From NCBI GenBank assembly GCA_963752595.1, contig CAVVYZ010000023.1, positions 1 through 64,000 of the forward strand: a DNA stretch of 64,000 nt, in the 5' to 3' direction. Below are positions 14,588-64,000 of this stretch, one piece after another. Every line of letters begins with the position of its first letter. Position 1 is the stretch's first letter. This stretch comes from an uncultured delta proteobacterium. GTDB taxonomy: Bacteria > Desulfobacterota > Desulfomonilia > UBA1062. The notes under the pieces are model-generated. The model saw nothing but the letters and a program-made list of their open reading frames with translations, did not search any database and was not told the DNA's origin. Position numbers and translations under genes: made by a program.

Positions 14588-15930
14588 TGTCGTCATTATC
14601 GGGGCGGGACCGGCGGGATCTTTGCAGCCCTGTGAGCTCGCTGAAGGACAAAGCCCGGGCTGAAGATCGTCATGATCGAGCAGGGCAGGGATATCACTGA
14701 AAGGACCACGATCCGGCAAAGAGATGCTCATCGGTTGGGGCGGGGCAGGCGCCTACAGCGACGGGAAGCTCACCATATCAACGGATGTGGGGGGCCAGCT
14801 CTCGTCCCTGATTGCCGAGAAAGAGCTCCTTGAGTTGCTCGAACATGTGGATGCCATCTACACGGGCTATGCCGCCTGCGGGCGACCTTTTCTCGGTACG
14901 AGGACGAGGATGCCGAGACTCATATCCGCCCAGGCGACGGCTTGCAAGTCTCATGTATATTCCCACCAGGGTCCGTCATATCGGGACGGAGTACCTCGCC
15001 ATCATCCTGGGGAAGATGAGGCAGGAGCTCGAAGGAAAGGTGAAGATCATGTTCAATGCGCGGGCCGAGGAGATCATTGGAAAGCGGCGGCAAGGTCAGG
15101 GGCGTCAGGCTCTCCGACGGTGAAGCATCATCGATGCGCCATTCGTCATAGCAGCTCCGGGCAGGGTGGGGTCTTCCTGGATGTCGGCCCAGGCAAGGAA
15201 GCTCGGTCTGGAAGCCAGGCCCGAACCCGGTGGATCTCGGTGTCCGGGTGGAGCTTCCTGCTGCAGTCATGGAACACCTCACAAGCAAGGCCTACGAAAC
15301 CAAATTCATCTACTATTCGCGAACCTTTGACGACCGCGTCCGGACCTTCTGCATGAATCCCTTCGGCGAAGTGGTGATCGAGACCCTGGATACGATCGTC
15401 ACGGTCAACGGCCATTCCTGGGCGAACAAGCGCACGGAAAACACGAATTTCGCCCTGCTGGTGAGCGCGGATTTCACCGAGCCCTTCGATGACCCCATCG
15501 GATATGGTGAATCCGTGGCCAGAGCTCGCTAACATGATTGGCAAGGGCGTGATCGTGCAGAGGCTGGGCGACCTCCAGGGCGGAAGACGCACGACGCCGA
15601 ACGCCTGCTCCGGTGCACCACCCGTCCCACCCTCAAACAGGCCACACCCGGCGACCTGAGCTTCTGCCTCCCCTACCGGATTCTCACCGACCTCATGGAG
15701 ATGCTGGCCTGCCTGGACCGGCTCGCACCCGGCGTGAATTCCGCCCACACCCTGCTCTATGGCATAGAGGTCAAGTTCTATTCCAACCGGATCACGTCTC
15801 GATCGCGAACTCAGGTCCCAGATTAAGCGGGCTGTACGTGATCGGCGATGGTGCCGGCATCACCCGGGGGCTCATCCAGGCGAGCTGTTCGGGGATCATC
15901 GCTGCCAGGTCCATAGCCGGCAGGCTGTGA
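14580..15930 (+). CDS. FAD-dependent oxidoreductase (frameshifted)
   Basis: IIGAGPAG, GWGGAGAYSDGKL, VRTFCMNP, VTVNGHS, GDGAGITRGL. Confidence 0.85.
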
Positions 15931-16113
15931 TCCGAGCTCAGCACCCGGCATCGATGCCTTTGACACCATACGCATCGAGTTTCTACGAGAAACACTAATC
16001 TCAAACGTATATTCTCGAAGATGGCCATGGGCATTTTTTACTTGAACAGAACTCTTCATTTATACTATCGTTTACCAGTTCTAATCCTAGTATCTGATAA
16101 GAGGGAGACTATC

Positions 16114-18794
16114 ATGGCAAAAAAGTATGTGTATCTCTTTGGAGGCAGGGGGACCAAGGCAGAGGGCAATGCAGAGATGAAGGCCATCCTGGGCGGAAAG
16201 GGAGCGAATCTTGCTGAAATGACCAATCTCGGGATACCGGTGCCTCCGGGATTCACGATCTCAACCGAAATGTGCTCCGTCTATTACGAATCAGGCGGGC
16301 TTCCAAAGAGATTCAAGACACAGGTAAAAGATGCCCTCAAAAAGGTGGAGCGGATCATGGGCCTCGGGTTCGGCGACACGGAATCACCGCTGCTGTTCTC
16401 CGTACGTTCCGGCGCCAGGGCGTCCATGCCCGGCATGATGGATACCGTACTGAATCTGGGCATCAATGATGAAACCGTGCACGGACTCATCAAGATGAGC
16501 GGGAACGAGCGCTTTGCATGGGACTGCTACCGGCGGTTCATCCAGATGTACAGCGATGTGGTCATGGAGGCGGATTCCCATGTCCTGGAAGAAGAGCTCG
16601 AGAAGATGAAGAAAAAGAAAGGTGTCAAGCTCGATACCGAGCTCGATGCCAAGGACCTCAAGAAGCTGGTGGCGATCATTCAAGGAAAAGGTGAAGAAGC
16701 TCACCGGCAAGGACCTGTCCTACCGACCCGATGGAACAGCTCTGGGGAGGAATCGAAGCGGTGTTCAAGTCATGGAACACACCCCGGGCCATCACCTATC
16801 GGAAAGCTCAACAATATTCCCGATGAATGGGGCACTGCCGTAAACGTACAGGCCATGGTGTTCGGAAACATGGGCGACAGTTCGGCCACAGGCGTTGCCT
16901 TCACGCGAGACCCTGCAACGGGCGAGAACGTTTTTTACGGCGAGTATCTGAAAAATGCACAGGGCGAAGACGTGGTGGCGGGCATCCGCACACCCATGCC
17001 CATCAACATCAAGGGCAAGCGGGACAAGGCCCATGTATCCATGGAAGAGGCCATGCCCGACCAGTATTCACAGCTTGTGGAGATCTATAAGACCCTCGAG
17101 AAGCACTACCGTGATATGCAGGACATCGAGTTCACGGTCCAGGAAGGCAACCTCTGGATGCTCCAGACCAGGACGGGAAAGCGCACTGCCGCAGCAGCCG
17201 TGCAGATCGCAGTGGATATGGTGAATGAAGGCCTCATCACGAAGAAAGAAGCGGTTCTCAGGGTCAACCCCGACCAGATCGACCAGCTCCTCCATCCCCA
17301 GATCGATCCCAAGGCAAAGAAGAAGATCATCGGCAAGGGCCTGCCCGCATCCCCGGGCGCAGCAGTGGGCAAGGTGGTCTTCTCGTGCGGAGGATGCTGA
17401 AGTCGGAGCTGAAAAAGGCAACAAGGTCATCCTGGTCAGGGTGGAGACATCACCGGAAGATATCCACGGCATGAACGTGGCCGAAGGCGTGCTCACGGCC
17501 CGGGGCGGCATGACCTCTCACGCGGCTGTTGTTGCGCGCGGCATGGGCAAGTGCTGTGTCTCCGGGGTGCAGCGACCTTACCATCGATTATGCAAAGCAG
17601 AAGTGCAAGCTCGGCGGCCAGACCATCAAGAAGGGGGACTTCATATCGCTGGACGGCACCAAGGGCGAGGTGATTCTCGGCGAGTGCAAGACCTCGTCGC
17701 CCACCCTGTCCGGCGCCTTCGGCATCCTCATGTACTGGGCGGACGAGTTCCGGAAGATCGGGGTGAGGACCAATGCCGATACCCCCAAGGACGCAAAAGT
17801 CAGCGCGGGAATTCGGCGCGGAAGGCATCGGGCTGTGCCGGACCGAGCACATGTTCTTCGAGGCGGACAGGATTCTGGCCGTGCGTGAGATGATTCTGGC
17901 CGATGACGAGAAGGGCCGGAGAAAGGCCCTGGACAAGATCAAGCCCATGCAGAAGGGCGATTTCAAGGGCATCTTCAGGGAAATGGACGGACTGCCCGGT
18001 AACCATCAGGCTCCTCGACCCGCCGCTCCATGAATTCCTGCCCCACACGGACGAAGAGATCGCCGAAGTGGCAAAGGCGCTGGGTACCCCGGTGAAGGAA
18101 GTCAAGGCAAAGAGGGATGCGCTGCACGAGGCCAACCCCATGCTCGGCCACCGCGGCTGCCGCCTCGGGGTAACCTTCCCCGAGATCTACGAGATGCAGG
18201 TGCGGGCCATCATGGAAGCGGCATGTGAGGTGAAGAAGGAGGGCGTCGACGTCGAGCCCGAGATCATGATTCCCCTCGTGGGCCATGTGAAAGAGCTTGA
18301 GCTCCTGCGGAACATGACCGTTGCCGTCTGCTGAAGAGGTCATGAAGGCATACAAGATCAAGCTCAGCTACATGGTGGGCACCATGATCGAGCTTCCCAG
18401 GGCTGCCTGACTGCAGACGAGATCGCGGAGCAGGCGGAGTTCTTCTCGTTCGGCACCAACGACCTGACCCAGACGACCTTCGGGCTCTCCCGTGACGATG
18501 CCGGCAAGTTCCTGCCCGTGTACGTGGAGAAGAAGATCCTTCCCCGGGATCCCGTTCCAGGCACTTGACCAGGATGGCGTAGGCGAGCTGATGAAGATCG
18601 GCATTGAAAAAGGCAGGAAGACCCGCAAGAAACTCAAGGTGGGGATCTGCGGAGAGCACGGCGGTGAGCCGTCTTCCATCGATTTCTGCCACAGGGTGGG
18701 CATGAATTACGTGAGCTGCTCGCCGTACCGGGTTCCCATTGCACGGCTCGCGGCAGCGCACGCAGCGCTGAACAACGAGACCAAGAAGAAGTGA
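16114..18794 (+). CDS. ppdK: Pyruvate, phosphate dikinase (frameshifted)
   Basis: [57 protein letters not shown]. Confidence 0.97.
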
Positions 18795-55340: not shown

Positions 55341-55379
55341 CCATACGCCCCCGTTTTACCAGTTTAATTGGATATACAT

Positions 55380-57013
55380 ATGGACAAGAATCAGAATATA
55401 TTATTGAAAATCATCTTATGCATCGCCGTTGCCGCCCTGTTCATCAACATAGGCGGAAAGGCCTTGTGGGATCCTGATGAAGCGAGATATGCGGAGATGG
55501 CACGTGAAGTCGTGGTGCTCAACGATTGGCTGACGCCGCATCTCAATTTTCTGCTCTATTTTGAAAAACCCATGATGTATGTCTGGATGGTGGCGGCGAG
55601 CTTCAAGGTATTCGGTGTAACGGAATGGGCTGCCCGGCTTGTTTCCCTCCTGTGCACCCTGGGAGGTGCCGCCCTGACAGGATATATGGCCTATAAACTG
55701 TGGGGACGGAGAGCAGGACTCATTTCCGCAATAATACTCCTGACCTCGCTTGAGTATTTACTCATGGCCAATATCGTTGATCTGAACATGGCCCTTACCT
55801 TGTTCATAACTGCAGCCATGGTTTTTTTCTGGCAGGGACAGCAGGAAAAGAAGGCACTCTGGTTTTATCTCTTCTGGATATCCATGGCGCTGGCGACATT
55901 GACCAAAGGGCCATAGGGATTGTCCTGCCTGCAGGAGCAATCGCCGTATATATTCTCATGACAAAGCAGTTCAACCTGATTAAGGAGTCCAGACCAATTT
56001 CGGGCATCCTGCTTTTCCTGCTCATTGCAGCTCCCTGGTTTCTGTATATGAGCATGAAGCATCCTGATTTTTTCTCTTTTTTCTTCATAAATCAGAACAT
56101 ACAACGGTTTGCGGTATCCGATGAGCATAACAAACCTTTTCATTATTTCTTCATGATCATCATCATGGGATTCCTTCCCTGGACTTTTCTGTTTCCTTTA
56201 TCGCTGAAAAAGATATGGGATAAGGGCATCTCGAAAGAGATCATCTACCTGGCCTGCTGGTTTCTGGTCATCCTCACCTTTTTCACCTTTTCCCGGTCAA
56301 AGCTGGGTACGTACGTGTTTCCCTGTTTTCCCCCGCTGGCCCTTTTCGTGGCAGATGTCCTGAGAGAAAAAAAAGAAGGATTGAGGATACCGCTTTACGC
56401 AGCAGGGATCCTGTGGATCTGTCTCGGCCTGGTATTACTGTTTTTCTCGGTACTGGTTTCAAACGGCATACTGAAGTTATCATCGTCCAATGCCTTGCCC
56501 CTCATGGATATCGGTCACTGGGGTGGCGCCATCATAACAATTGCTGCACTCACCGGCATCCTCCTGGGCAGAAGATACGGAACGGCCCTGGGGTTTGCCG
56601 TCCTGGGAACTGCACTCATCATAACCGTCAATGGGTTCTCTCATTATTGGGATGATATGGAGTCAACCAAACACCTGGTGAAGGATCTGCCGTCACAGGC
56701 GATCCTCTGCTCCTATAAGAGATATTATCAGAGTGCGAGCTTCTATGCTCAGAAACAGGTGATATTGGTGGATACTCTGGGAGAGCTGGAATTCGGTGTC
56801 CGGCACCATACCGGTTCCCCCATAACCATGACCCTGGACACCCTCAGCCGTCTCATGGAAACGGATAAAAAGGTCTACTGCATAACCTCGGTAAGACATC
56901 TGCCCTTTCTGCTGGCCAATATTCCCGATGCCGTTGTGACAAAACAGATCAAGGGATACGCGCTGCTGCATGTCCCTGAAAGCAAAGAACGATTTTACCA
57001 GCTGATCCAATGA
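55380..57013 (+). CDS. ArnT-like GT-C glycosyltransferase (frameshift near 55915)
   Basis: WDPDEARYAEMAREV, YFEKP, EWAARL, LTKGP, SKLGTY. Confidence 0.9.
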
Positions 57014-57041
57014 GTTTTATAACCCCCTGTGGTAATTCCAC

Positions 57042-57070
57042 TTGACACCCTCAGGGGTGGATTGTATAGA
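57042..57070 (+). promoter_or_regulatory. Sigma70 promoter of the tRNA
   Basis: TTGACA-17 nt-TATAGA. Confidence 0.6.
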
Positions 57071-57083
57071 TTCACCACGGTTC

Positions 57084-57155
57084 GGGCCGCTAGCTCAGCG
57101 GGAGAGCGCTGCCTTCACACGGCAGAAGTCACAGGTTCAAATCCTGTGCGGCCCA
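57084..57155 (+). tRNA. tRNA-Val (anticodon CAC)
   Basis: Acceptor GGGCCGC/GCGGCCC, D arm, anticodon arm CTGCC-TTCACAC-GGCAG, T arm ACAGG-TTCAAAT-CCTGT. Confidence 0.95.
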
Positions 57156-57196
57156 TACCTAACTCCTTAATATAATTGTCATATTTTAACTCAAAT

Positions 57197-57218
57197 ATGT
57201 TCGCGGAATGTTCGCGGG
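57197..57218 (+). repeat. Candidate integrase arm-type sites (left)
   Basis: atgttcgcgga-atgttcgcggg tandem, repeated at 63412. Confidence 0.75.
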
Positions 57219-57316
57219 GTTTTTCCAAACCTGTTTTCACTTGTTTATTTTTTTTCAAATATGCAAGATGCCTAAATAGATAATTGATTTTTTTTATTGT
57301 TTAAAAGGGATAATAT

Positions 57317-58108
57317 ATGCCACGTGATCAAATACTAAAAAGGGCTTTTGAAATAGCAGACGATGGTATGCAAGGTGCTGTTGGATATTTTTATTATGTT
57401 GTTGCTGCTCAAGGATTAGCGAAAGAGGAGAGAATAATAGACTACCTCCCAAAAGGATTGGCTAAACAAAGCGATGGAACACACAAGCCAGCATTCGTTA
57501 TGAATATGTTCCATCAATGGGTTCGATTTTATAATCCTTTAGAACTCATTCAAACAATGCATTCTGTTTTCATACCATACCACATTCGTACATGTTTGTT
57601 AGGTATAGTAAGCATCTTTGAGGGATATCTACGAAACACTACTGATCGCTTAGTTAAAAAAGGATTAATTCCTCGATTACCGGATACTTATAAACAGCGT
57701 CTAAAATGGGCGATCGACATTGTACTTACTTCAAACTATGGCGATTCGGAAATGCAAAAGAGATGTCCGAAATTATGTCTGGATTTAGACCATGCGAGAC
57801 GTATAAGGAATTTATGGATGCATAATAATGGCAATTTTAATAAACGGTATAAGAGGGATGCTTTAGCTATTGCCGGTCATGATGCGATAGTTGTACCGGC
57901 GTTCTTAAAATTTAAAAAATCTCCCAAAAGTAAAATTGCTTTTCCTATTGAAATGGCACTATTCGAAACAATTTCTTGTTCTCACATAGAGGCACTACAT
58001 CATATTAACCACATGCTACAGACACAACATTTCGGCCAGAAAAGGTCATATGGATATGCACGTGAAAATAAAAAAATCGAATGGGAACGCCTACTAACGG
58101 GAGTTTAA
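57317..58108 (+). CDS. HEPN-motif protein (candidate RNase)
   Basis: SIFEGYL N-terminal helix and RNLWMHNNG (RxxxxH). Confidence 0.65.
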   Translation: MPRDQILKRAFEIADDGMQGAVGYFYYVVAAQGLAKEERIIDYLPKGLAKQSDGTHKPAFVMNMFHQWVRFYNPLELIQTMHSVFIPYHIRTCLLGIVSIFEGYLRNTTDRLVKKGLIPRLPDTYKQRLKWAIDIVLTSNYGDSEMQKRCPKLCLDLDHARRIRNLWMHNNGNFNKRYKRDALAIAGHDAIVVPAFLKFKKSPKSKIAFPIEMALFETISCSHIEALHHINHMLQTQHFGQKRSYGYARENKKIEWERLLTGV

Positions 58109-58176
58109 GAGTTAAACGCTCAAGGCAATATTTTATTTTTCATATTTTTTAACATTCGCAGATCGGGTCTGAAACA

Positions 58177-58592
58177 TTATCGATATAACATTTCAATGCC
58201 TCTTTTGTCACAAACATCATATAAGTCAATTGTATTAAAACAGATAAAGCCATCAATAGATAATGACACATCTTCAAGCATTGATCTAATCACATGATCT
58301 ACCAAACTGTATGTTTTAGTTTGTTTTTCAAGCACAAATTCTAAAAGAGGTTCACGATAGCATTTATCTTCAATCAATATTGTTGAGGGTAAATCTAAGA
58401 AATGTTTAAATCTAACAACATCATGCTTTCTACGAACTAATCGAGTATGAATCGTCTCATAAAGGGTGGGCCAAGGGACGAGTAGTGAATGAACTTGTAT
58501 CTGTTCATCACCATAGCTTCAGAGTGAAAAGCATCTCTTTCATTGAATAAGGCGAACCAATAACCTGAATCAGCAAAAATATTTTTTGGCAT
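58177..58592 (-). CDS. PIN-domain (VapC-like) nuclease (frameshift near 58510)
   Basis: Hand translation MPKNIFADSGYWFALFNERDAFH...PWPTLYET...SLVD...FNTID. Confidence 0.8.
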
Positions 58593-58916
58593 TAGATATC
58601 ATCCTCTGATTCCGCGCCCCCATAACCTTTCCAAGGTGATGCCTTGCGTTTTCCAATGATAAATCTACCTTTATTGAGCCTCCGAAGATTTCCAAATAAT
58701 ATATATCCTATCTGATTTGGAAAAATTTACATTTTCTTCCAATTCTTGTCTTAATTTAATAGATATATCATCCTCATCATCTTTAAGTGCAGAATATTGA
58801 AATACTGCCAAACTACCACCACATTCCTTTGCATCGAGATTATCTAACCATTCATAAAGCCCCGCATAATCTCCCTTCACTCCAAGGTCATATGAAAGCC
58901 ATATAGTTTTTTTCAT
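58592..58916 (-). CDS. Small protein with Cas2/VapD-like N-terminus, coupled to the PIN gene
   Basis: MKKTIWLSYDLGVKGDYAGLYEWLD...GKRKASPWKGYG; TAATG stop/start overlap. Confidence 0.7.
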
Positions 58917-58938
58917 TTTCAAAAGTCCCTTCTGTTCT

Positions 58939-60051
58939 TTAATAGATTTTTCTCTTTTTGATTTCGATTATTTTCCCTTCAAGTAAAGCTCTTTTATCAT
59001 CCAATTCAACCTTCCCATACCGATATACTGATTGAACGCTGGCATGTCCTGTCGCTATCTTAACTTGTTCAGGAGAATATTGCTTCATCATCTTTGTAAC
59101 CGTTGAATGCTTTGTTCCTGAATATAGGTTAATCTGAACGCCCGTTTCCTTACAAGCCTCATTCCAAAGCCGGCGTACTATGTCCTTAGTGTATCTCTTA
59201 TGAGGATGATTTGATTCTTTGCAGTTGAAAACAAAGGGGCTAAAGGGATAATCGGTTGCCATGCTTTCAAGGATCTCCACAAAATCTGATACAAGAGGGA
59301 CCTCGTGAATCTTTTTATCTTTTGTGTATACTACTTCCTCACCGCCTGAAATTCCTCTTTGAACAATGAAAGCCTTTTTATTGGGTCATAATCCTGTTTC
59401 ATGAGCATCATGGCTGAACTTGGCCTTATCTCAGGATGATATTTAAGCAACCAGAAGATCGGCTGATGTTTTGTTTCAATAGCTTTAATAATTTTAATCT
59501 GGATTTCTTCTGTAACAGCCTTTGGTATTGGATCAACAATTTTATATTCTCGTCGCTTAAGGGGAAGGGGAGGGAATCTATTAGCTCAGATCTCCAAGCA
59601 TAATCCATTGCTGATGAAAGACTATCTATAACTTTTTTACGAGTGTTCGGAGTAATCTCTTTTTTGTCGAGCTCGTTCTTGAGCTGCTTTATGACTTTGA
59701 GTTTCACTTCATGAAGCTGGTATTGATACTTGATGAAGAAAGGCTCTAGGTGGTTATTAACATACCCCAAATAGTTTTTATAAGTGCCGGGAGACCAATC
59801 TCCTTTACATTCATCCAACCATTCACGCAAAAATTGAACTACATTTGAATCTCCATGATAATATTTTCTCGGATTAAAAACACCCCGTTCGACATCACCT
59901 TGCATCTGATGGAGGCATTTTTCAGCGTCCTCTTTAGTTCTCATCCTTAATCCACGATAGAATGAGACCTCATACCGTTCGCCTTCATAAAAGAATTTGA
60001 ATAGAACCAGGTTTTCTTTACTCCATGACGTTGATGGATGCTCCCCTTCAT
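58939..60051 (-). CDS. Tyrosine recombinase / integrase (frameshifted)
   Basis: Arm-binding-like start MKGSIHQR, SPGTYKNY core domain, C-terminal YSGTKHS and TGHASVQSVYRY. Confidence 0.88.
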
Positions 60052-60213
60052 ACAGGTCTCCAAATTATCACAATAGCTGTTATGGTAAACCTGTTTTTTG
60101 TGGAGGTCAATTGCATCGTGGAAGCCCTTATATTTAAACCTTTTTTAAAATTACACTTGAAGTCCGTTAATAGACGATCTTTTCCTTTTTCAAATTTTTC
60201 TTTGTTCTAAAAT

Positions 60214-61294
60214 CTAAGGATTAAAAGGAATATCAGTACTTTCTATTATCAGTCTGTGGTTATTGAGCCACTGATAGGGATTTTTCACAAAGAAATACAT
60301 GGTCCTTCTATCTCTTACCCCTGTAGCTCTTCTAGTTGCCTTTGAAGTATATAAAAAGCCCTCTCAGTCATAGGATAGGTTACTTTGGCAGAAAAAGGGA
60401 TTTTACCACCTTTACCCCATACATTACCCAGATCTGCATCATAATCTTCAAGGTCTTCTTTCCCGAGATACTTGCCAGCATAGCCCATTATCCCATTTTC
60501 ACTTTTAATGGTTTCAACCCTTGTTCCTGCTAATAGATGTTTATCAACTCCAGAGCTGACAACATTGAACCATATTGTTGCGATCAACTTACGGGCATCT
60601 TCATAAGGTACTCCCCACAGAAAGAAGTGATAGTGAGGAGCTATCTCACCTTTATGAATTCCAGACTTCCTTTTCTTTATTTCTAAACGCCATATGTAAC
60701 CGAGATAGGGGTATTCTCTTTTTAAACGCCTGAAGAACTCCTTTATGTGAGCCTTGCTTTCTTTTGGACTTGGGATTTTTTCATCAGGATATGTCAGCGT
60801 TACAAATATAGGTTTTTTATTTCTCTTAACCATTGCCATCATGAGCATTAAACCTTTTCGACTTTGTCTTGAAAACCTCTTTCTTATCGCACCAGCCATG
60901 AATCATCTCCTTTTTTAAACACTAAAACTTTCACTATACCGTTGTCATACTGGATCACCTCTTTGACGGATTTTCTCCTTCCCTTGGTTTCCTTGAAGAT
61001 TATCAATCTGCCTTCAGGATAGTAATCTATGACTATGAGATTATTACCTTTTACATTTATTCTTCTAGGTATATGCTTATGGTTTGATGGATGATTTGTT
61101 TCATAGGTATGTGTTCTTGAATTAACATAGGACAAGCCCCTGGCACCTTCGGTGCCTCTGCCGCTTGCGCTCGCTTGCTCCCCTCCCATAGTTCGCCGCT
61201 CGCTTGCGGCAGGGTCATCAGGTTCAATCTCAGAAAGTGGTCTTATTGGATATGCGTTTTCAAAAAGATTAAGTTGTTTTGGTTGTTTTGCCAT
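60214..61294 (-). CDS. HUH rolling-circle replication initiator (probably one frameshifted gene)
   Basis: Motif I FVTLTYP, WRLE, motif II PHYHF, motif III YAGKYLGK. Confidence 0.82.
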
Positions 61295-61393
61295 ATGGGG
61301 CTTTTCCCTCTCTTTGAGAGAGCCCCACTTGACTCTTTAGCTATAGAAATATACATTTATACAGCTGAGTAAGCCGAAAGGCCCTCATGCTCC

Positions 61394-61443
61394 AAAAGGC
61401 CAGGCATTGCGTCTCGCCAAAGTCCGATGCCTGGCTTTTCCTT
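61394..61443. terminator. Intrinsic terminator-like hairpin
   Basis: aaaaggccaggcat / atgcctggctttt. Confidence 0.65.
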
Positions 61444-61445
61444 TA

Positions 61446-61856
61446 ATTAATTCTTATTTTTTTTCACGCGTGCCATATAAAGCCCTTTTTCTTTGTCATA
61501 ACTTTCATCATCTATTCTATATTCTTCTTCCCTCTTTATTCTCATTTCTTCTTTTATCTTTTCAACATCTTCGGCAGGGGATATAAATGTAAGCCCCGTG
61601 GGTTCGATTTAGGAGAACACGTAGGGCATGTGTTAATTTACTATCTTGATCATCATAACTAAACCTATAGGCCCTTATACGTTTCTCTTTTCTTCAAGTT
61701 GATGATATAGGCTCTGCTCACATCTAGCCTTCCAGCAGCCCCACCAGGAGAAACCACTTGCCCTTCAAATTCTTCACACACTTGATTAAACTCATCAAAC
61801 GAGTTTAATTTAATTGTTCCACCCTCACATGATTTGAAGTTTTTTTTCTTATCCAT
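61446..61856 (-). CDS. Putative HTH DNA-binding protein (frameshifted)
   Basis: VVSPGGAAGRLDVSRAYI resembles an excisionase/MerR-like HTH. Confidence 0.55.
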
Positions 61857-61898
61857 GACTTATGTTCCTTTCGTCTTTAGGATATCTACTAAACAAGA

Positions 61899-61937
61899 GT
61901 TAGTAACATAGGTTAGTAACATATGTTAACAACATAG
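61899..61937. repeat. Three tandem 13-bp direct repeats
   Basis: gttagtaacatag gttagtaacatat gttaacaacatag. Confidence 0.85.
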
Positions 61938-62283
61938 ATCAAGTATAAAAATGTGATGATCTCTACGCTTCACTCCCCCGGCTCCCCACAGGTCCGCCGA
62001 CCCTCCCTTCGTCCTCTTTTCCTGACTGCCGAAAGACTGACCCCTCTGGGCCTCCATTGTGCCTTCATTACATTACGGCACAACAGAACCTAGGCCCTGG
62101 GAAGCTATCCGGGGTCTCGGCGGTCAGAGAGGAGTATGGGGTAGCGTTCAGCTACGCTACGAGAAGATAGCTTCAATGAAATCTATAAACGCAAGAATAA
62201 TGAATTATTCAGCCTCAAAGTAGATCATTTAATTATAATATGATATTAAATCCTTAGACCGCTTCTAAAGAGAGGGTATAAAT

Positions 62284-63303
62284 ATGAAAAGGAACTCAAA
62301 TAATAATATAATTTTTACAATTTTAATTTCTTTTATTATCCTGAATTATTTACCCATTAAAGCAGAAGCAGATGAGAACCCTCAAGAACAAAAAATATTG
62401 GTTCTGGAAAATAGATTAAAAATAAACACAGAGTCTCTTGATGCGGTTAGAAGAGATCAGCTTAATTATAATATAGAAAAAAATTTGTTAAAAGAAGCAT
62501 ACGCTTCAAACATGCAAACAATTAACCTTATTATAGCTCTAATACTTGGTTCATTAACAATCCTTGGATATGCTGGAGTAAGAAGTATCAATTCAATCAA
62601 GAAAGATTTTAAAGGAGAGTTAGATAATTTAATTTTATTAAGAAGTGAGTTTGACTTGAAAATGAGAGATGTTGATGATCAACTTTTAAACGCAAAGAAA
62701 AGATACGATGAATTAGCTCAAGTAAACGAAAAGCAGGATAAACGCCTTCAAATTCTAGAAATTCAAGAGAAATCAGCTGCGCTTATAAAAGAGAAGAACT
62801 TTTCAAATGCCCTAAGATACATCGATATTGGCCTTAGCCTTTCTAGTCATGATATTAGTTTTCTATCAATGAAAGCATTATGTCTATTATGTCTAAAAAG
62901 GTTTGATGAATGCATCTTTGCCTATGAAATTTTATTATCACAAGACTCAAACAATATTAGTGCTATCACAAACTTAATTGAGCTTTATTTACTTACAGGA
63001 AAGCGGGAAAAATCTAGTTTCTTATGCAGGTGCATTTGCCAATACTCAGTTCCATTTATGGCCCTTATTTTTCATGGTACATATCTGCACTTGATCACTT
63101 CCTATCAGGAAACGAAGAGGATTTGAAAAAATTGTTGATGCATCATCCTGTAGATGTTCCTGAATCAAAATCTCCACGTATAAATAACTGGACCTATGGT
63201 GACGCTCTCTATATTTATAAACCGTATGTCCAATAAACCGGGATATAAAGCTATGTTAGGTGCATACTTTCTTAGAAGGTAAGCTATCTCTCGAAGAATT
63301 TAA
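62284..63303 (+). CDS. Membrane-anchored coiled-coil/TPR protein (frameshifted; 3' end uncertain)
   Basis: Signal-like N-terminus, TM IIALILGSLTILGYAGV, coiled coil, TPR-like helices. Confidence 0.7.
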
Positions 63304-63410
63304 CAGAGAAATTCGCTGACATACATTACGGTTCAACCAAACGAACTGGCGCTTACGGCGAAGTCCGTAATCTAACTTAATCACTAATCATCAACACATT
63401 CGAAACACAG

Positions 63411-63433
63411 AATGTTCGCGGAATGTTCGCGGG
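63411..63433 (+). repeat. Candidate integrase arm-type sites (right)
   Basis: aatgttcgcgg-aatgttcgcggg. Confidence 0.75.
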
Positions 63434-63570
63434 TACCTGTAGAACAAGGCCTGATGCTGGTGTAAACAGGTTCAAATCCTGTGTGGCAAAGGAATAATGG
63501 ATCAAAATTTAAGAGAACGAGTGACTTTACCCAAAGGGTGGAGTCACAATGTTTTGTTTTGTCTTTGAAT

Positions 63571-63756
63571 CCCCATTGAAACAGGTGAGGAGCGGAGGGG
63601 AAATTTGGGGAAACAGCGGCGTTTGTCTGAGCGGAGTGAAACGGAGCGAGTTTAGCCGCGGCCCAAATTTTCCCGAGCACCGCAGCGGACCCCGCAGGGG
63701 CTGTTTCACTTGGGGTGCCCTTTTTCGGTTCCTTTTTTGGGCAAGCAAAAAGGAAC
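63571..63756. repeat. GC-rich nested palindromic element
   Basis: ccccattgaaacag/ctgtttcacttgggg, gggaaatttggg/cccaaattttccc, gttccttttttg/caaaaaggaac. Confidence 0.6.
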
Positions 63757-63923
63757 AAAAGCTTATTTTGAGTTGGCCGAAAGCAAGCTTTATTATCGTA
63801 AATAAAACAGCTTTTTAGTTTGGGGAAACCCAGAAATAACCCAATGCTATAATCTAATGTTTTCCTGGACTGTGTCGTACAGTAAATGGTTGCAAATCCC
63901 ATGCGCAAAAAGGTCCAACTATT

Positions 63924-64000
63924 ATGATTGATATGCAACAGATGAATGTCCTTATCGTCGATGACATGGAGAACATGTGCAAAGCGATTAGGGGGATGCT
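63924..64000 (+). CDS. Response regulator, 5' end
   Basis: MNVLIVDDMENMCKAIRGM. Confidence 0.75.
   Translation, partial: MIDMQQMNVLIVDDMENMCKAIRGM

What the first reader, a model, noticed from the sequence alone, without database searches (positions are those of the whole stretch)
57131..63487. Minimal integrative rolling-circle element in tRNA-Val carrying candidate defence cargo
Seen: 22-bp att repeats bound a 6.3 kb AT-rich unit. Its core (HTH, HUH Rep, tyrosine integrase) is on the minus strand, with cargo at both ends. There are no capsid, Zot/morphogenesis, terminase, relaxase or T4SS genes. Known: motifs FxTLT, HxH and YxxKY define HUH replication initiators of ssDNA phages and plasmids; satellites and small integrative elements are hotspots for antiphage genes. 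Inference: an excisable replicon, either a satellite of a helper phage or an integrative plasmid, that pays its way with nuclease-based defence. It may be an undescribed element family.
Basis: partly seen in the sequence, partly recalled or inferred. Interest (0 to 1): 0.78.

Follow-up and report, generated by a model that had tools for sequence, protein, structure and literature searches.

The report
Integrated rolling-circle mini-plasmid with nuclease cargo
A 6.3-kb mobile element sits in the end of a valine tRNA gene and carries an integrase, a rolling-circle replication gene with predicted origins and a predicted copy-control RNA, and three predicted nuclease-fold cargo genes, so it is likely a tiny plasmid that parks in the chromosome, although excision, spread between cells and any anti-phage role are untested.

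Summary
Confirmed: att repeats (21/22 nt) at tRNA-Val(CAC) bound a 6.3-kb, 37% GC unit with HUH Rep (PF23343), tyrosine integrase and a small HTH gene. I add integrase arm-type repeats and a predicted full plasmid replicon: a nick-site motif shared by 46 of 76 non-redundant Rep loci, an antisense-RNA promoter and hairpins kept in 6 of 6 sister elements, and a covarying sso-like rod. The same Rep family occurs on 1-2 kb free circles and in one inovirus. Sister elements shuffle origin, regulator, Rep type (HUH or Rep_trans) and integrase. Cargo here is a stand-alone HEPN-fold protein, a conserved Cas2-fold + PIN pair I did not find described, and an orphan TPR gene. None hits PADLOC; some sisters carry recognised R-M systems. 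At least nine frameshifts are probably long-read errors of this error-rich contig. No reads were available, so circles are unshown, and no helper was found. The kind is partly known (streptococcal IMEs with RCR initiators, pSAM2), and this scan reported it before on other DNA (33 findings). Verdict: new variant of a known kind.

The parts
57084..57155 (+). tRNA-Val(CAC), the integration target; its 3' end is supplied by the element (no encoded CCA)
57131..57152 (+). left att core; inverted 5-bp arms around the 7-nt T-loop
57197..57218 (+). tandem 10-11 bp repeat, exact copy at 63412; predicted integrase arm-type sites
   Evidence: analogous tandem repeats inside the ends of sisters L016, L026, L030 and a near-identical one beside tRNA-Val in L173
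57317..58108 (+). 263-aa stand-alone HEPN-fold protein, intact; predicted RNase; no Pfam or PADLOC family
   Evidence: R164, N165, H169 invariant in 58 of 58 aligned sequences; model pLDDT 95; top 12 structural matches are HEPN-type proteins, best Z 10.6, rmsd 3.2-4.0, 130-136 aligned
58177..58592 (-). PIN-domain gene, split over two frames as assembled
   Evidence: both pieces align to intact homologues with no internal stop; 2 of 4 homologues scanned reach PF01850
58595..58922 (-). Cas2/VapD-fold gene (about 106 aa in homologues), split over two frames; conserved upstream partner of the PIN gene
   Evidence: 116 hits including itself; top 8 structural matches of a homologue's model are Cas2-type chains, Z 7.2-8.2; PIN gene follows it in 9 of 13 other loci
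58939..60054 (-). tyrosine integrase, in four collinear pieces (breaks near 60001, 59570, 59382)
60170..60899 (-). HUH rolling-circle Rep (PF23343); main ORF 60315-60899, C-terminus continues in two other frames
60884..61294 (-). 136-aa ORF homologous to the N-terminus of longer Reps; separate gene or one more break (the 74%-identical P0002 also starts at the downstream Met)
61127..61156 (-). predicted double-strand origin: GC hairpin followed by GGGCTTGTC
   Evidence: GGCTTGT in 46 of 76 non-redundant Rep loci against 2.2 in shuffles; hairpin stem differs by paired changes in L029
61329..61441 (+). predicted antisense (counter-transcribed) RNA: sigma70-like promoter 61329-61357 and a 78-nt two-hairpin RNA ending in a T run
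   Evidence: (6 of 6 elements examined; fold z -3.9 to -5.2)
61447..61856 (-). small HTH/excisionase-like regulator, split as assembled
   Evidence: 50% identical to the intact 116-aa gene of L030; RHH (CopG family) genes hold this slot in other sisters
61899..61932 (-). TGTTACTAAC repeats over the regulator's promoter; predicted operator
   Evidence: same word at the same place in L030
61955..62165 (-). GC-rich rod-like structure; predicted single-strand origin
   Evidence: ssDNA fold z -3.4; 79% and 87% identical copies in elements with a different Rep family; 8 of 63 pairs compensatory among 3 sequences
62284..63236 (+). orphan cargo gene: hydrophobic segments, coiled coil, weak TPR; probably split
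   Evidence: TPR_2 E 0.001, below cut-off; no homologue in 121 other genomes of the class
63412..63433 (+). right copy of the arm-type repeat
63466..63487 (+). right att core; the tRNA's terminal bases do not follow it

Best explanation
This is a tRNA-integrated element built from a tyrosine integrase with att sites plus a likely complete rolling-circle mini-plasmid replicon (predicted single-strand origin, regulator, predicted antisense RNA, predicted nick site, HUH Rep), which would excise as a 6.3-kb circle, copy itself and re-integrate, and whose HEPN and Cas2-fold/PIN cargo is predicted to act as addiction or abortive-infection RNases. Shown: att cores, arm repeats, gene identities, conservation of the non-coding parts, module swapping among sisters, free circles with the same Rep family. 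Inferred steps: Int recombines attL x attR across the 7-nt T-loop; the HTH represses the regulator-rep promoter (and may double as Xis); the antisense RNA limits Rep translation, as CopG and RNAII do in pMV158; Rep nicks at CTTGTC; host primase or RNA polymerase converts the displaced strand at the rod. Repression would keep Rep silent in the chromosome. Transfer between cells is not encoded and would need a helper, transduction or uptake. The frameshifts are most likely long-read errors.
For: Anatomy. 29 of 80 metagenome Rep loci end in terminal repeats (28 of 43 nt or more), 26 of the 29 are 1.0-1.9 kb with Rep and at most a few short ORFs, so this Rep family serves free replicons. GGCTTGT in 46 of 76 non-redundant loci (background 2.2), nearly always 190-280 nt before motif I; it resembles the CTTGATA nick site of pC194-type origins (PMC10378824, passages). 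Antisense promoter + structured RNA in 6 of 6 elements of two sequence types; chance of the promoter pattern per segment 0.7-1.7%. The rod travels with either Rep family, as expected of a host-read sso (PMC5714925, passages), and four free 1.7-kb circles plus one more short contig share 42-61 nt (75-85%) with the same slot of sister L030. Among 29 Rep loci of 5 kb or more, 16 have an integrase within 7 kb, 14 a duplicated tRNA end (2.2-10.9 kb apart), 1 a Zot-type gene. Errors: no in-frame stop inside any aligned block of element genes; host genes of the same contig carry 24 frameshifts in about 36 kb; homopolymer runs are 2.2-2.9 times denser in the element, which predicts 7-10 breaks against at least 9 seen.
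Against: No circle, read depth or transcript could be examined. As assembled, Int and the regulator are broken, and the 9 kb of host DNA just left of the element has only 2 frameshifts, so true decay is not excluded. The window's nick motif departs from the family consensus at 2-3 positions, and the motif is in frame with Rep in most loci, so part of its conservation may be protein-level. The CS-6 word is not kept on the Rep strand in L016. Terminal repeats of metagenome contigs are not proof of circles. Integrase seeds came partly from the loci counted, and near-duplicate loci were not removed. No cargo gene of this element hits PADLOC. Many integrases of the same clade have no Rep beside them.
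Confidence: 0.68

Rival explanations
1. It is an integrative mobilisable element (IME): Rep and the nick site double as relaxase and oriT, and a conjugative helper moves it. Compatible with the best explanation; it adds the transfer route.
For: PMC5704250 (passages): 118 of 144 streptococcal IMEs encode RCR-initiator-like relaxases (Rep_trans, Rep_2, PHA00330, Viral-Rep), 35 without a coupling protein; the review doubts the Rep/relaxase distinction. Sisters here likewise alternate HUH and Rep_trans-type initiators.
Against: No coupling protein in the element; PF02534 not found in G000 (84% complete, and this contig seems to come from another organism, so weak). The helpers named in the review are TcpA-type Firmicute ICEs. 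Copy-control RNA and 1-kb Rep-only circles point to vegetative replication as the main job.
Confidence: 0.3
2. It is a satellite or reduced derivative of a filamentous phage: its ssDNA circle is packaged by a helper inovirus, and the rod is a packaging or origin signal.
For: An inovirus contig (L109, Zot-like gene E 8e-24) has a 42%-identical Rep with the same nick motif and falls in the same clade as the window's Rep (SH-aLRT 95, quick tree).
Against: L109 shares no leader, antisense promoter or rod with the element; a 23-nt word of the rod had 0 exact matches in IMG/VR; Zot not found in G000 (same caveat); 1 of 29 long Rep loci has Zot (one query).
Confidence: 0.13
3. It is a once-mobile element now decayed and fixed: the frameshifts are real and the damaged right junction locks it in, leaving the intact HEPN gene as the only working part.
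For: At least 9 breaks in 5.1 kb against 0.67 per kb in host genes; only HEPN is intact; the tRNA end is missing after attR and no relative shows the right-flank gene next to the tRNA (0 of 17 loci); the sister on C30 is IS-interrupted.
Against: Only frame shifts, no stops inside aligned blocks and no lost segments; att cores and arm repeats are exact; all non-coding structures are intact; conserved host genes on this contig are broken the same way.
Confidence: 0.17

Closest known systems
Streptococcal IMEs with RCR-initiator-type putative relaxases and no coupling protein (PMC5704250, passages read)
   Same: Site-specific integration at tRNA or other gene ends; a single RCR initiator of interchangeable families; TA and R-M cargo; RCR maintenance of the excised form proposed.
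   Different: Rep family here is PF23343, not among the four listed; non-Firmicute host; no TcpA; a predicted antisense copy-control RNA and free-circle relatives; mobilisation unshown.
pMV158-type rolling-circle plasmid control region, CopG + RNAII + RepB (PMC4485353, abstract read)
   Same: Order regulator - antisense RNA - rep, with dso and sso; four sisters have an RHH regulator (one reaches CopG family PF01402).
   Different: Unrelated Rep family; 77-102 nt two-hairpin RNA; HTH instead of RHH in this copy; fused to an integrase and att sites.
pSAM2-type actinomycete integrative conjugative elements (recalled; named also in earlier scan notes)
   Same: Int + Xis-like + RCR Rep at a tRNA; replicate after excision.
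   Different: No FtsK/TraB translocase or spread genes; about half the size.
Inoviruses and their satellites RS1/TLC (satellite details recalled)
   Same: Rep family shared with an inovirus contig and distantly with Inoviridae/Microviridae Reps.
   Different: No pI/Zot, coat or SSB gene; own tyrosine integrase at a tRNA rather than host XerCD at dif.
HEPN toxins (HepT/MNT) and Cas2/VapD-like RNases (PMC3506569, passages read)
   Same: HEPN fold with R-X4-H; Cas2 fold with an invariant Asp after the first strand; solo Cas2-like genes on mobile elements were proposed to cause addiction.
   Different: HEPN is twice the usual size with no MNT partner; the Cas2-fold gene is coupled to a PIN gene, a pairing not found in one paper search or two look-ups of scan notes.

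Membership tests
tRNA-targeting integrative element | att core duplication of the tRNA 3' part at both ends | tested here: met
tRNA-targeting integrative element | tyrosine integrase with arm-type sites | tested here: met
   frameshifted as assembled
tRNA-targeting integrative element | excised attP circle or empty site | not testable with these tools
   no runs listed; no close relative with the same flanks
HUH rolling-circle initiator | motifs I, II (HuH), III (YxxKY) in Rep order | tested here: met
   order I-II-III marks Rep rather than Mob proteins (PMC5714925)
RCR plasmid replicon (pMV158-like control) | dso, sso, repressor and antisense RNA upstream of rep | tested here: met
   sequence-level only:
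RCR plasmid replicon (pMV158-like control) | autonomous replication | not testable with these tools
   shown only indirectly by free circles of the Rep family
IME | mobilisation module (oriT with or without relaxase) | tested here: inconclusive
   no MOB family hit; Rep/dso could serve
IME | transfer by a helper conjugative element | not testable with these tools
   PF02534 not found in G000, incomplete and mixed assembly
AICE (pSAM2 type) | FtsK/TraB DNA translocase | tested here: not met
   no such ORF; the element's genes are accounted for
Inovirus prophage | pI/Zot morphogenesis ATPase and coat genes | tested here: not met
PICI / cf-PICI / P4 / PLE satellites | primase-helicase, AlpA, terminase or capsid-interference genes (recalled) | tested here: not met
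   none in Pfam, NCBIfam, PHROGs scans; SatelliteFinder itself not available
Filamentous-phage satellite | packaging by a helper | not testable with these tools
   no helper identified
HEPN RNase | HEPN fold and R-X4-6-H motif | tested here: met
MNT-HEPN toxin-antitoxin | adjacent nucleotidyltransferase | tested here: not met
   single gene between attL and the convergent PIN gene
Catalogued anti-phage system (PADLOC 2.0) | profile match of cargo proteins | tested here: not met
   window cargo and intact homologues give no meaningful hit
Type II/V toxin-antitoxin pair (Cas2-fold + PIN) | conserved two-gene operon | tested here: met
   9 of 13 other loci
Type II/V toxin-antitoxin pair (Cas2-fold + PIN) | toxicity neutralised by the partner | not testable with these tools
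   needs expression tests

The most novel reading that the evidence does not exclude
A widespread class of 'parkable' mini-plasmids: 1-2 kb rolling-circle circles repeatedly capture an integrase and attP, keep a plasmid-type antisense copy-control system, swap origin, regulator, initiator family and integrase as free modules, and ferry defence genes, here including an undescribed toxin-antitoxin or defence pair in which a CRISPR-free Cas2-fold protein controls a PIN RNase.
Probability: 0.35. Interest if true: 0.7.

Novelty: new variant of a known kind. Interest (0 to 1): 0.5.

Why it matters
Small integrase islands with no transfer or virion genes are common and their life cycle is an open question. 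This family shows an unusually complete and testable anatomy: predicted nick site, copy-control RNA and single-strand origin, with free-circle and inovirus relatives of the same Rep. It suggests how such islands arise (plasmid plus integrase) and offers parts for vectors in a poorly tractable group of bacteria. The cargo slot yields two candidate defence or addiction modules outside PADLOC: a stand-alone HEPN family and a Cas2-fold + PIN operon, the latter relevant to the proposed toxin-like role of Cas2 homologues.

Tried and rejected
Sequencing runs: none was listed, so no junction, depth or indel check. Complex prediction for the Cas2-fold and PIN proteins of L193: no answer, no evidence either way. 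Foldseek on the HEPN model: no match at E<=0.001; PDB sequence searches for HEPN and Rep profiles: 0. Rfam on 57000-64000: only the tRNA passes. One joint alignment of both antisense RNA types gave only the terminator stem. CS-6 as proof of an ssoA: not kept on the same strand in L016, dropped. Empty-site search through the right-flank gene: no tRNA within 1.5 kb in 17 of 17 loci. Rep profile across 401 phylum genomes: 2 with a match, including G000; HEPN profile: 2 of 381, the other one broken, so no context. Cas2-like gene in IMG/VR: none. The Rep tree is the quick search only; the careful search did not finish, and 20 of 99 loci were dropped (no usable frame or near-identical). Rep_trans-type proteins of sisters have no Pfam hit; the label rests on the motifs listed in PMC5714925. 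Paper searches that found no description of this family: (open-access library only; supplements not read, and they could hold such elements in tables). Rejected: prophage remnant (sisters are att-bounded and small), chance repeat, assembly chimera inside the element (core genes collinear with sisters).
Full report
Observation. The tRNA-Val(CAC) lies at 57084-57155. Its bases 57131-57152 recur at 63466-63487 with one mismatch; shuffles reach at most 15 of 22. The enclosed 6.3 kb is 36.8% GC against 55.2% for the rest of the window. A second, exact 22-bp repeat, itself a tandem of a 10-11 bp unit, lies 44 bp inside the left core and 32 bp inside the right core and nowhere else in the assembly. 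Sister elements show the same layout with their own words, so these are most likely integrase arm-type sites (inference).

Core genes. On the minus strand, from right to left, come a small regulator, an ORF like the N-terminus of longer Reps, the Rep and the integrase. Rep matches PF23343 (E 4e-13) with motifs I-II-III in Rep order (order per PMC5714925, passages). The integrase aligns in four collinear pieces to an intact homologue (47-61% identity) from another tRNA-Val(CAC) element of the family. The regulator is 50% identical to an intact 116-aa gene of sister L030; its only family hit is a weak excisionase PHROG, so it may be repressor, Xis or both.

Frameshifts. I count at least nine breaks: integrase 3, Rep 2, regulator, Cas2-like and PIN 1 each, and probably TPR 1 (no homologue to confirm it). 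None of the aligned blocks of element genes holds an in-frame stop and nothing is deleted. Host genes of contig C23 carry 24 frameshifts in about 36 kb; six other contigs tested gave 0.14, 0.27, 0.32, 0.33, 0.91 and 2.6 per kb, the last on only 1.2 kb. Runs of five or six equal bases are 2.2 and 2.9 times denser in the element, which predicts 7-10 breaks in 5.1 kb. Long-read error is the likelier cause, but the 9 kb of host DNA next to the element has only two breaks, so decay stays open. C23 is about 67% identical to two other copies of the same locus in this assembly, so it probably comes from a second, low-coverage organism; negative searches in G000 are weak for that reason.

The replicon. 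(1) Nick site: GGCTTGT stands upstream of motif I in 46 of 76 non-redundant Rep loci (2.2 in shuffles), mostly as GGGCTTGTCTA-N4-CAT. It resembles the CTTGATA nick site of pC194-type origins (PMC10378824, passages). The window has it at 61131-61140 behind a GC hairpin whose stem changes in pairs in L029. The motif is usually in frame with Rep, so protein constraint may contribute. (2) Antisense RNA: on the strand opposite rep, a sigma70-like promoter (61329-61357) precedes a 78-nt two-hairpin RNA with a T tail. All 6 elements examined have such a promoter and RNA, in two sequence types, with fold z-scores -3.9 to -5.2; the promoter pattern arises in 0.7-1.7% of shuffled segments, though the six are kin. 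With the upstream regulator this matches the CopG + RNAII control of pMV158 (PMC4485353, abstract). (3) Rod at 61955-62165: ssDNA fold z -3.4, 79% and 87% identical copies in G004 and G108 (3 other genomes of 121 matched, one only weakly), 8 of 63 pairs compensatory in three sequences. Those two copies belong to elements with a Rep_trans-type initiator, which fits a host-read single-strand origin rather than a Rep-specific site.

Relatives. Of 80 metagenome loci with this Rep, 29 end in terminal repeats and 26 of those are 1.0-1.9 kb with little besides Rep. Of 29 loci of 5 kb or more, 16 have an integrase within 7 kb, 14 a duplicated tRNA end 2.2-10.9 kb away and one, an inovirus contig, a Zot-type gene (seeds partly from these loci, duplicates kept). 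Record titles span Planctomycetota, Verrucomicrobiota, Anaerolineales, Balneolaceae and Gaiellales. In a quick Rep tree of 79 rows, the circle, integrated and inovirus labels need 6 changes (at least 2 per label forced by strong branches), and the window's Rep groups with three integrated sisters, the inovirus and a 1.7-kb circle. Within the host's family and among its closest metagenome relatives, eight elements at tRNA-Val, tRNA-Ser, tRNA-Ala, tmRNA or unresolved sites combine three origin types, HTH or RHH regulators with their matching leader, HUH or Rep_trans-type Rep and five integrase types in mixed order. The clearest swap is L030 versus the element on G000:C30: same tRNA-Ser site, integrases 88% identical, different Rep families. 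L016 is 3.9 kb with no recognisable cargo. Against a fixed family: the integrase profile hits 29 of 122 class genomes, PF23343 only 3 of 122 and the Rep_trans-type protein 8 of 122; most integrases inspected had no Rep beside them.

Cargo. The 263-aa gene is a HEPN-fold protein: R164, N165 and H169 are invariant in 58 sequences and the 12 best structural matches are HEPN-type proteins, best Z 10.6 (a helical fold, so the motif carries much of the weight). It has 92 representatives at 50% clustering, no Pfam family and no MNT neighbour. The 83-aa ORF belongs to a 105-108 aa family whose model matches Cas2-type chains in its eight best hits, Z 7.2-8.2; a PIN gene follows it in 9 of 13 other loci, and the four exceptions are the weakest matches. 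PMC3506569 (passages) proposes addiction roles for solo Cas2-like genes; I did not find the Cas2 + PIN pairing. The TPR gene is an orphan. None of these hits PADLOC. Sisters do carry recognised systems: a type II R-M pair and DUF262-type genes in L026; type II R-M and HEC-01-like genes in L221, methyltransferases in L173, AbiU in L120 (11 of 27 hand-picked neighbours hit; element bounds not fixed for all). Defence is therefore a family tendency, not a shown property of this copy.

Right junction. The bases that end the tRNA in 14 of 15 relatives' copies do not follow the right core, and the downstream response-regulator gene was not near a tRNA in any of 17 loci. Excision would leave a truncated tRNA-Val(CAC); a deletion or rearrangement at attR after insertion is the simplest reading (inference).

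Comparison. It works like a pMV158-style rolling-circle plasmid joined to a tRNA integrase. It resembles streptococcal IMEs with RCR-type initiators, 35 of which lack a coupling protein (PMC5704250, passages), but mobilisation is untested and the Rep family differs. It fails the tests for AICE, inovirus prophage and PICI-type satellites. Six paper searches found no description of this family (one preprint's passages read, did not cover it). The scan's own notes list 33 findings of this general kind in at least 32 genomes, none similar in sequence; these are unchecked and I use them only to judge how common the kind is.

Verdict. Real element, new variant of a known kind, interest 0.5. The value lies in the mapped control region, the module swapping and the two uncatalogued cargo modules; excision, replication, transfer and defence remain to be shown.

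Noticed in passing
G000:C30:160330-169700 (L133, L208): A second element of this kind at tRNA-Ser(CGA) in the same assembly, with an integrase 88% identical to L030's but a Rep_trans-type Rep, interrupted by insertion sequences.
   Followed up: partly
G000 contigs C21, C23, C28: Three copies of the histidine kinase - tRNA-Val(CAC) locus; C23 is only about 67% identical to the other two, so the assembly mixes organisms.
   Followed up: partly
window 55368-57013: ArnT/PMT-type glycosyltransferase split by one frameshift; it lies between the kinase and the tRNA only in this contig among the loci inspected.
   Followed up: partly
window 63572-63760: Palindromic MITE-like repeat just outside attR; several 70-72% copies in G020, one directly behind that genome's tRNA-Val.
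   Followed up: no
L218-L221 (G005, G006, G007): Rep_trans-type elements at tRNA-Glu with another integrase type and variable cargo (type II R-M, ATPase pairs).
   Followed up: partly
L063, L072, L094, L055, L053: 1.7-2 kb contigs (four with terminal repeats) carrying Rep and, where read, a small regulator, sharing 42-61 nt with the origin slot of integrated L030: candidate free ancestors.
   Followed up: partly
L045:6216-8774 and 14876-16816: Two similar elements on one contig with the same HTH and integrase types but HUH versus Rep_trans-type Rep: the same swap in another lineage.
   Followed up: no
L187:4334-4759 (plasmid NC_017965.1): An unannotated PIN gene directly follows the Cas2-fold gene on this conjugative plasmid.
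   Followed up: partly
L109: Inovirus-like contig whose Rep is in the same clade as the window's Rep and carries the same nick motif.
   Followed up: partly
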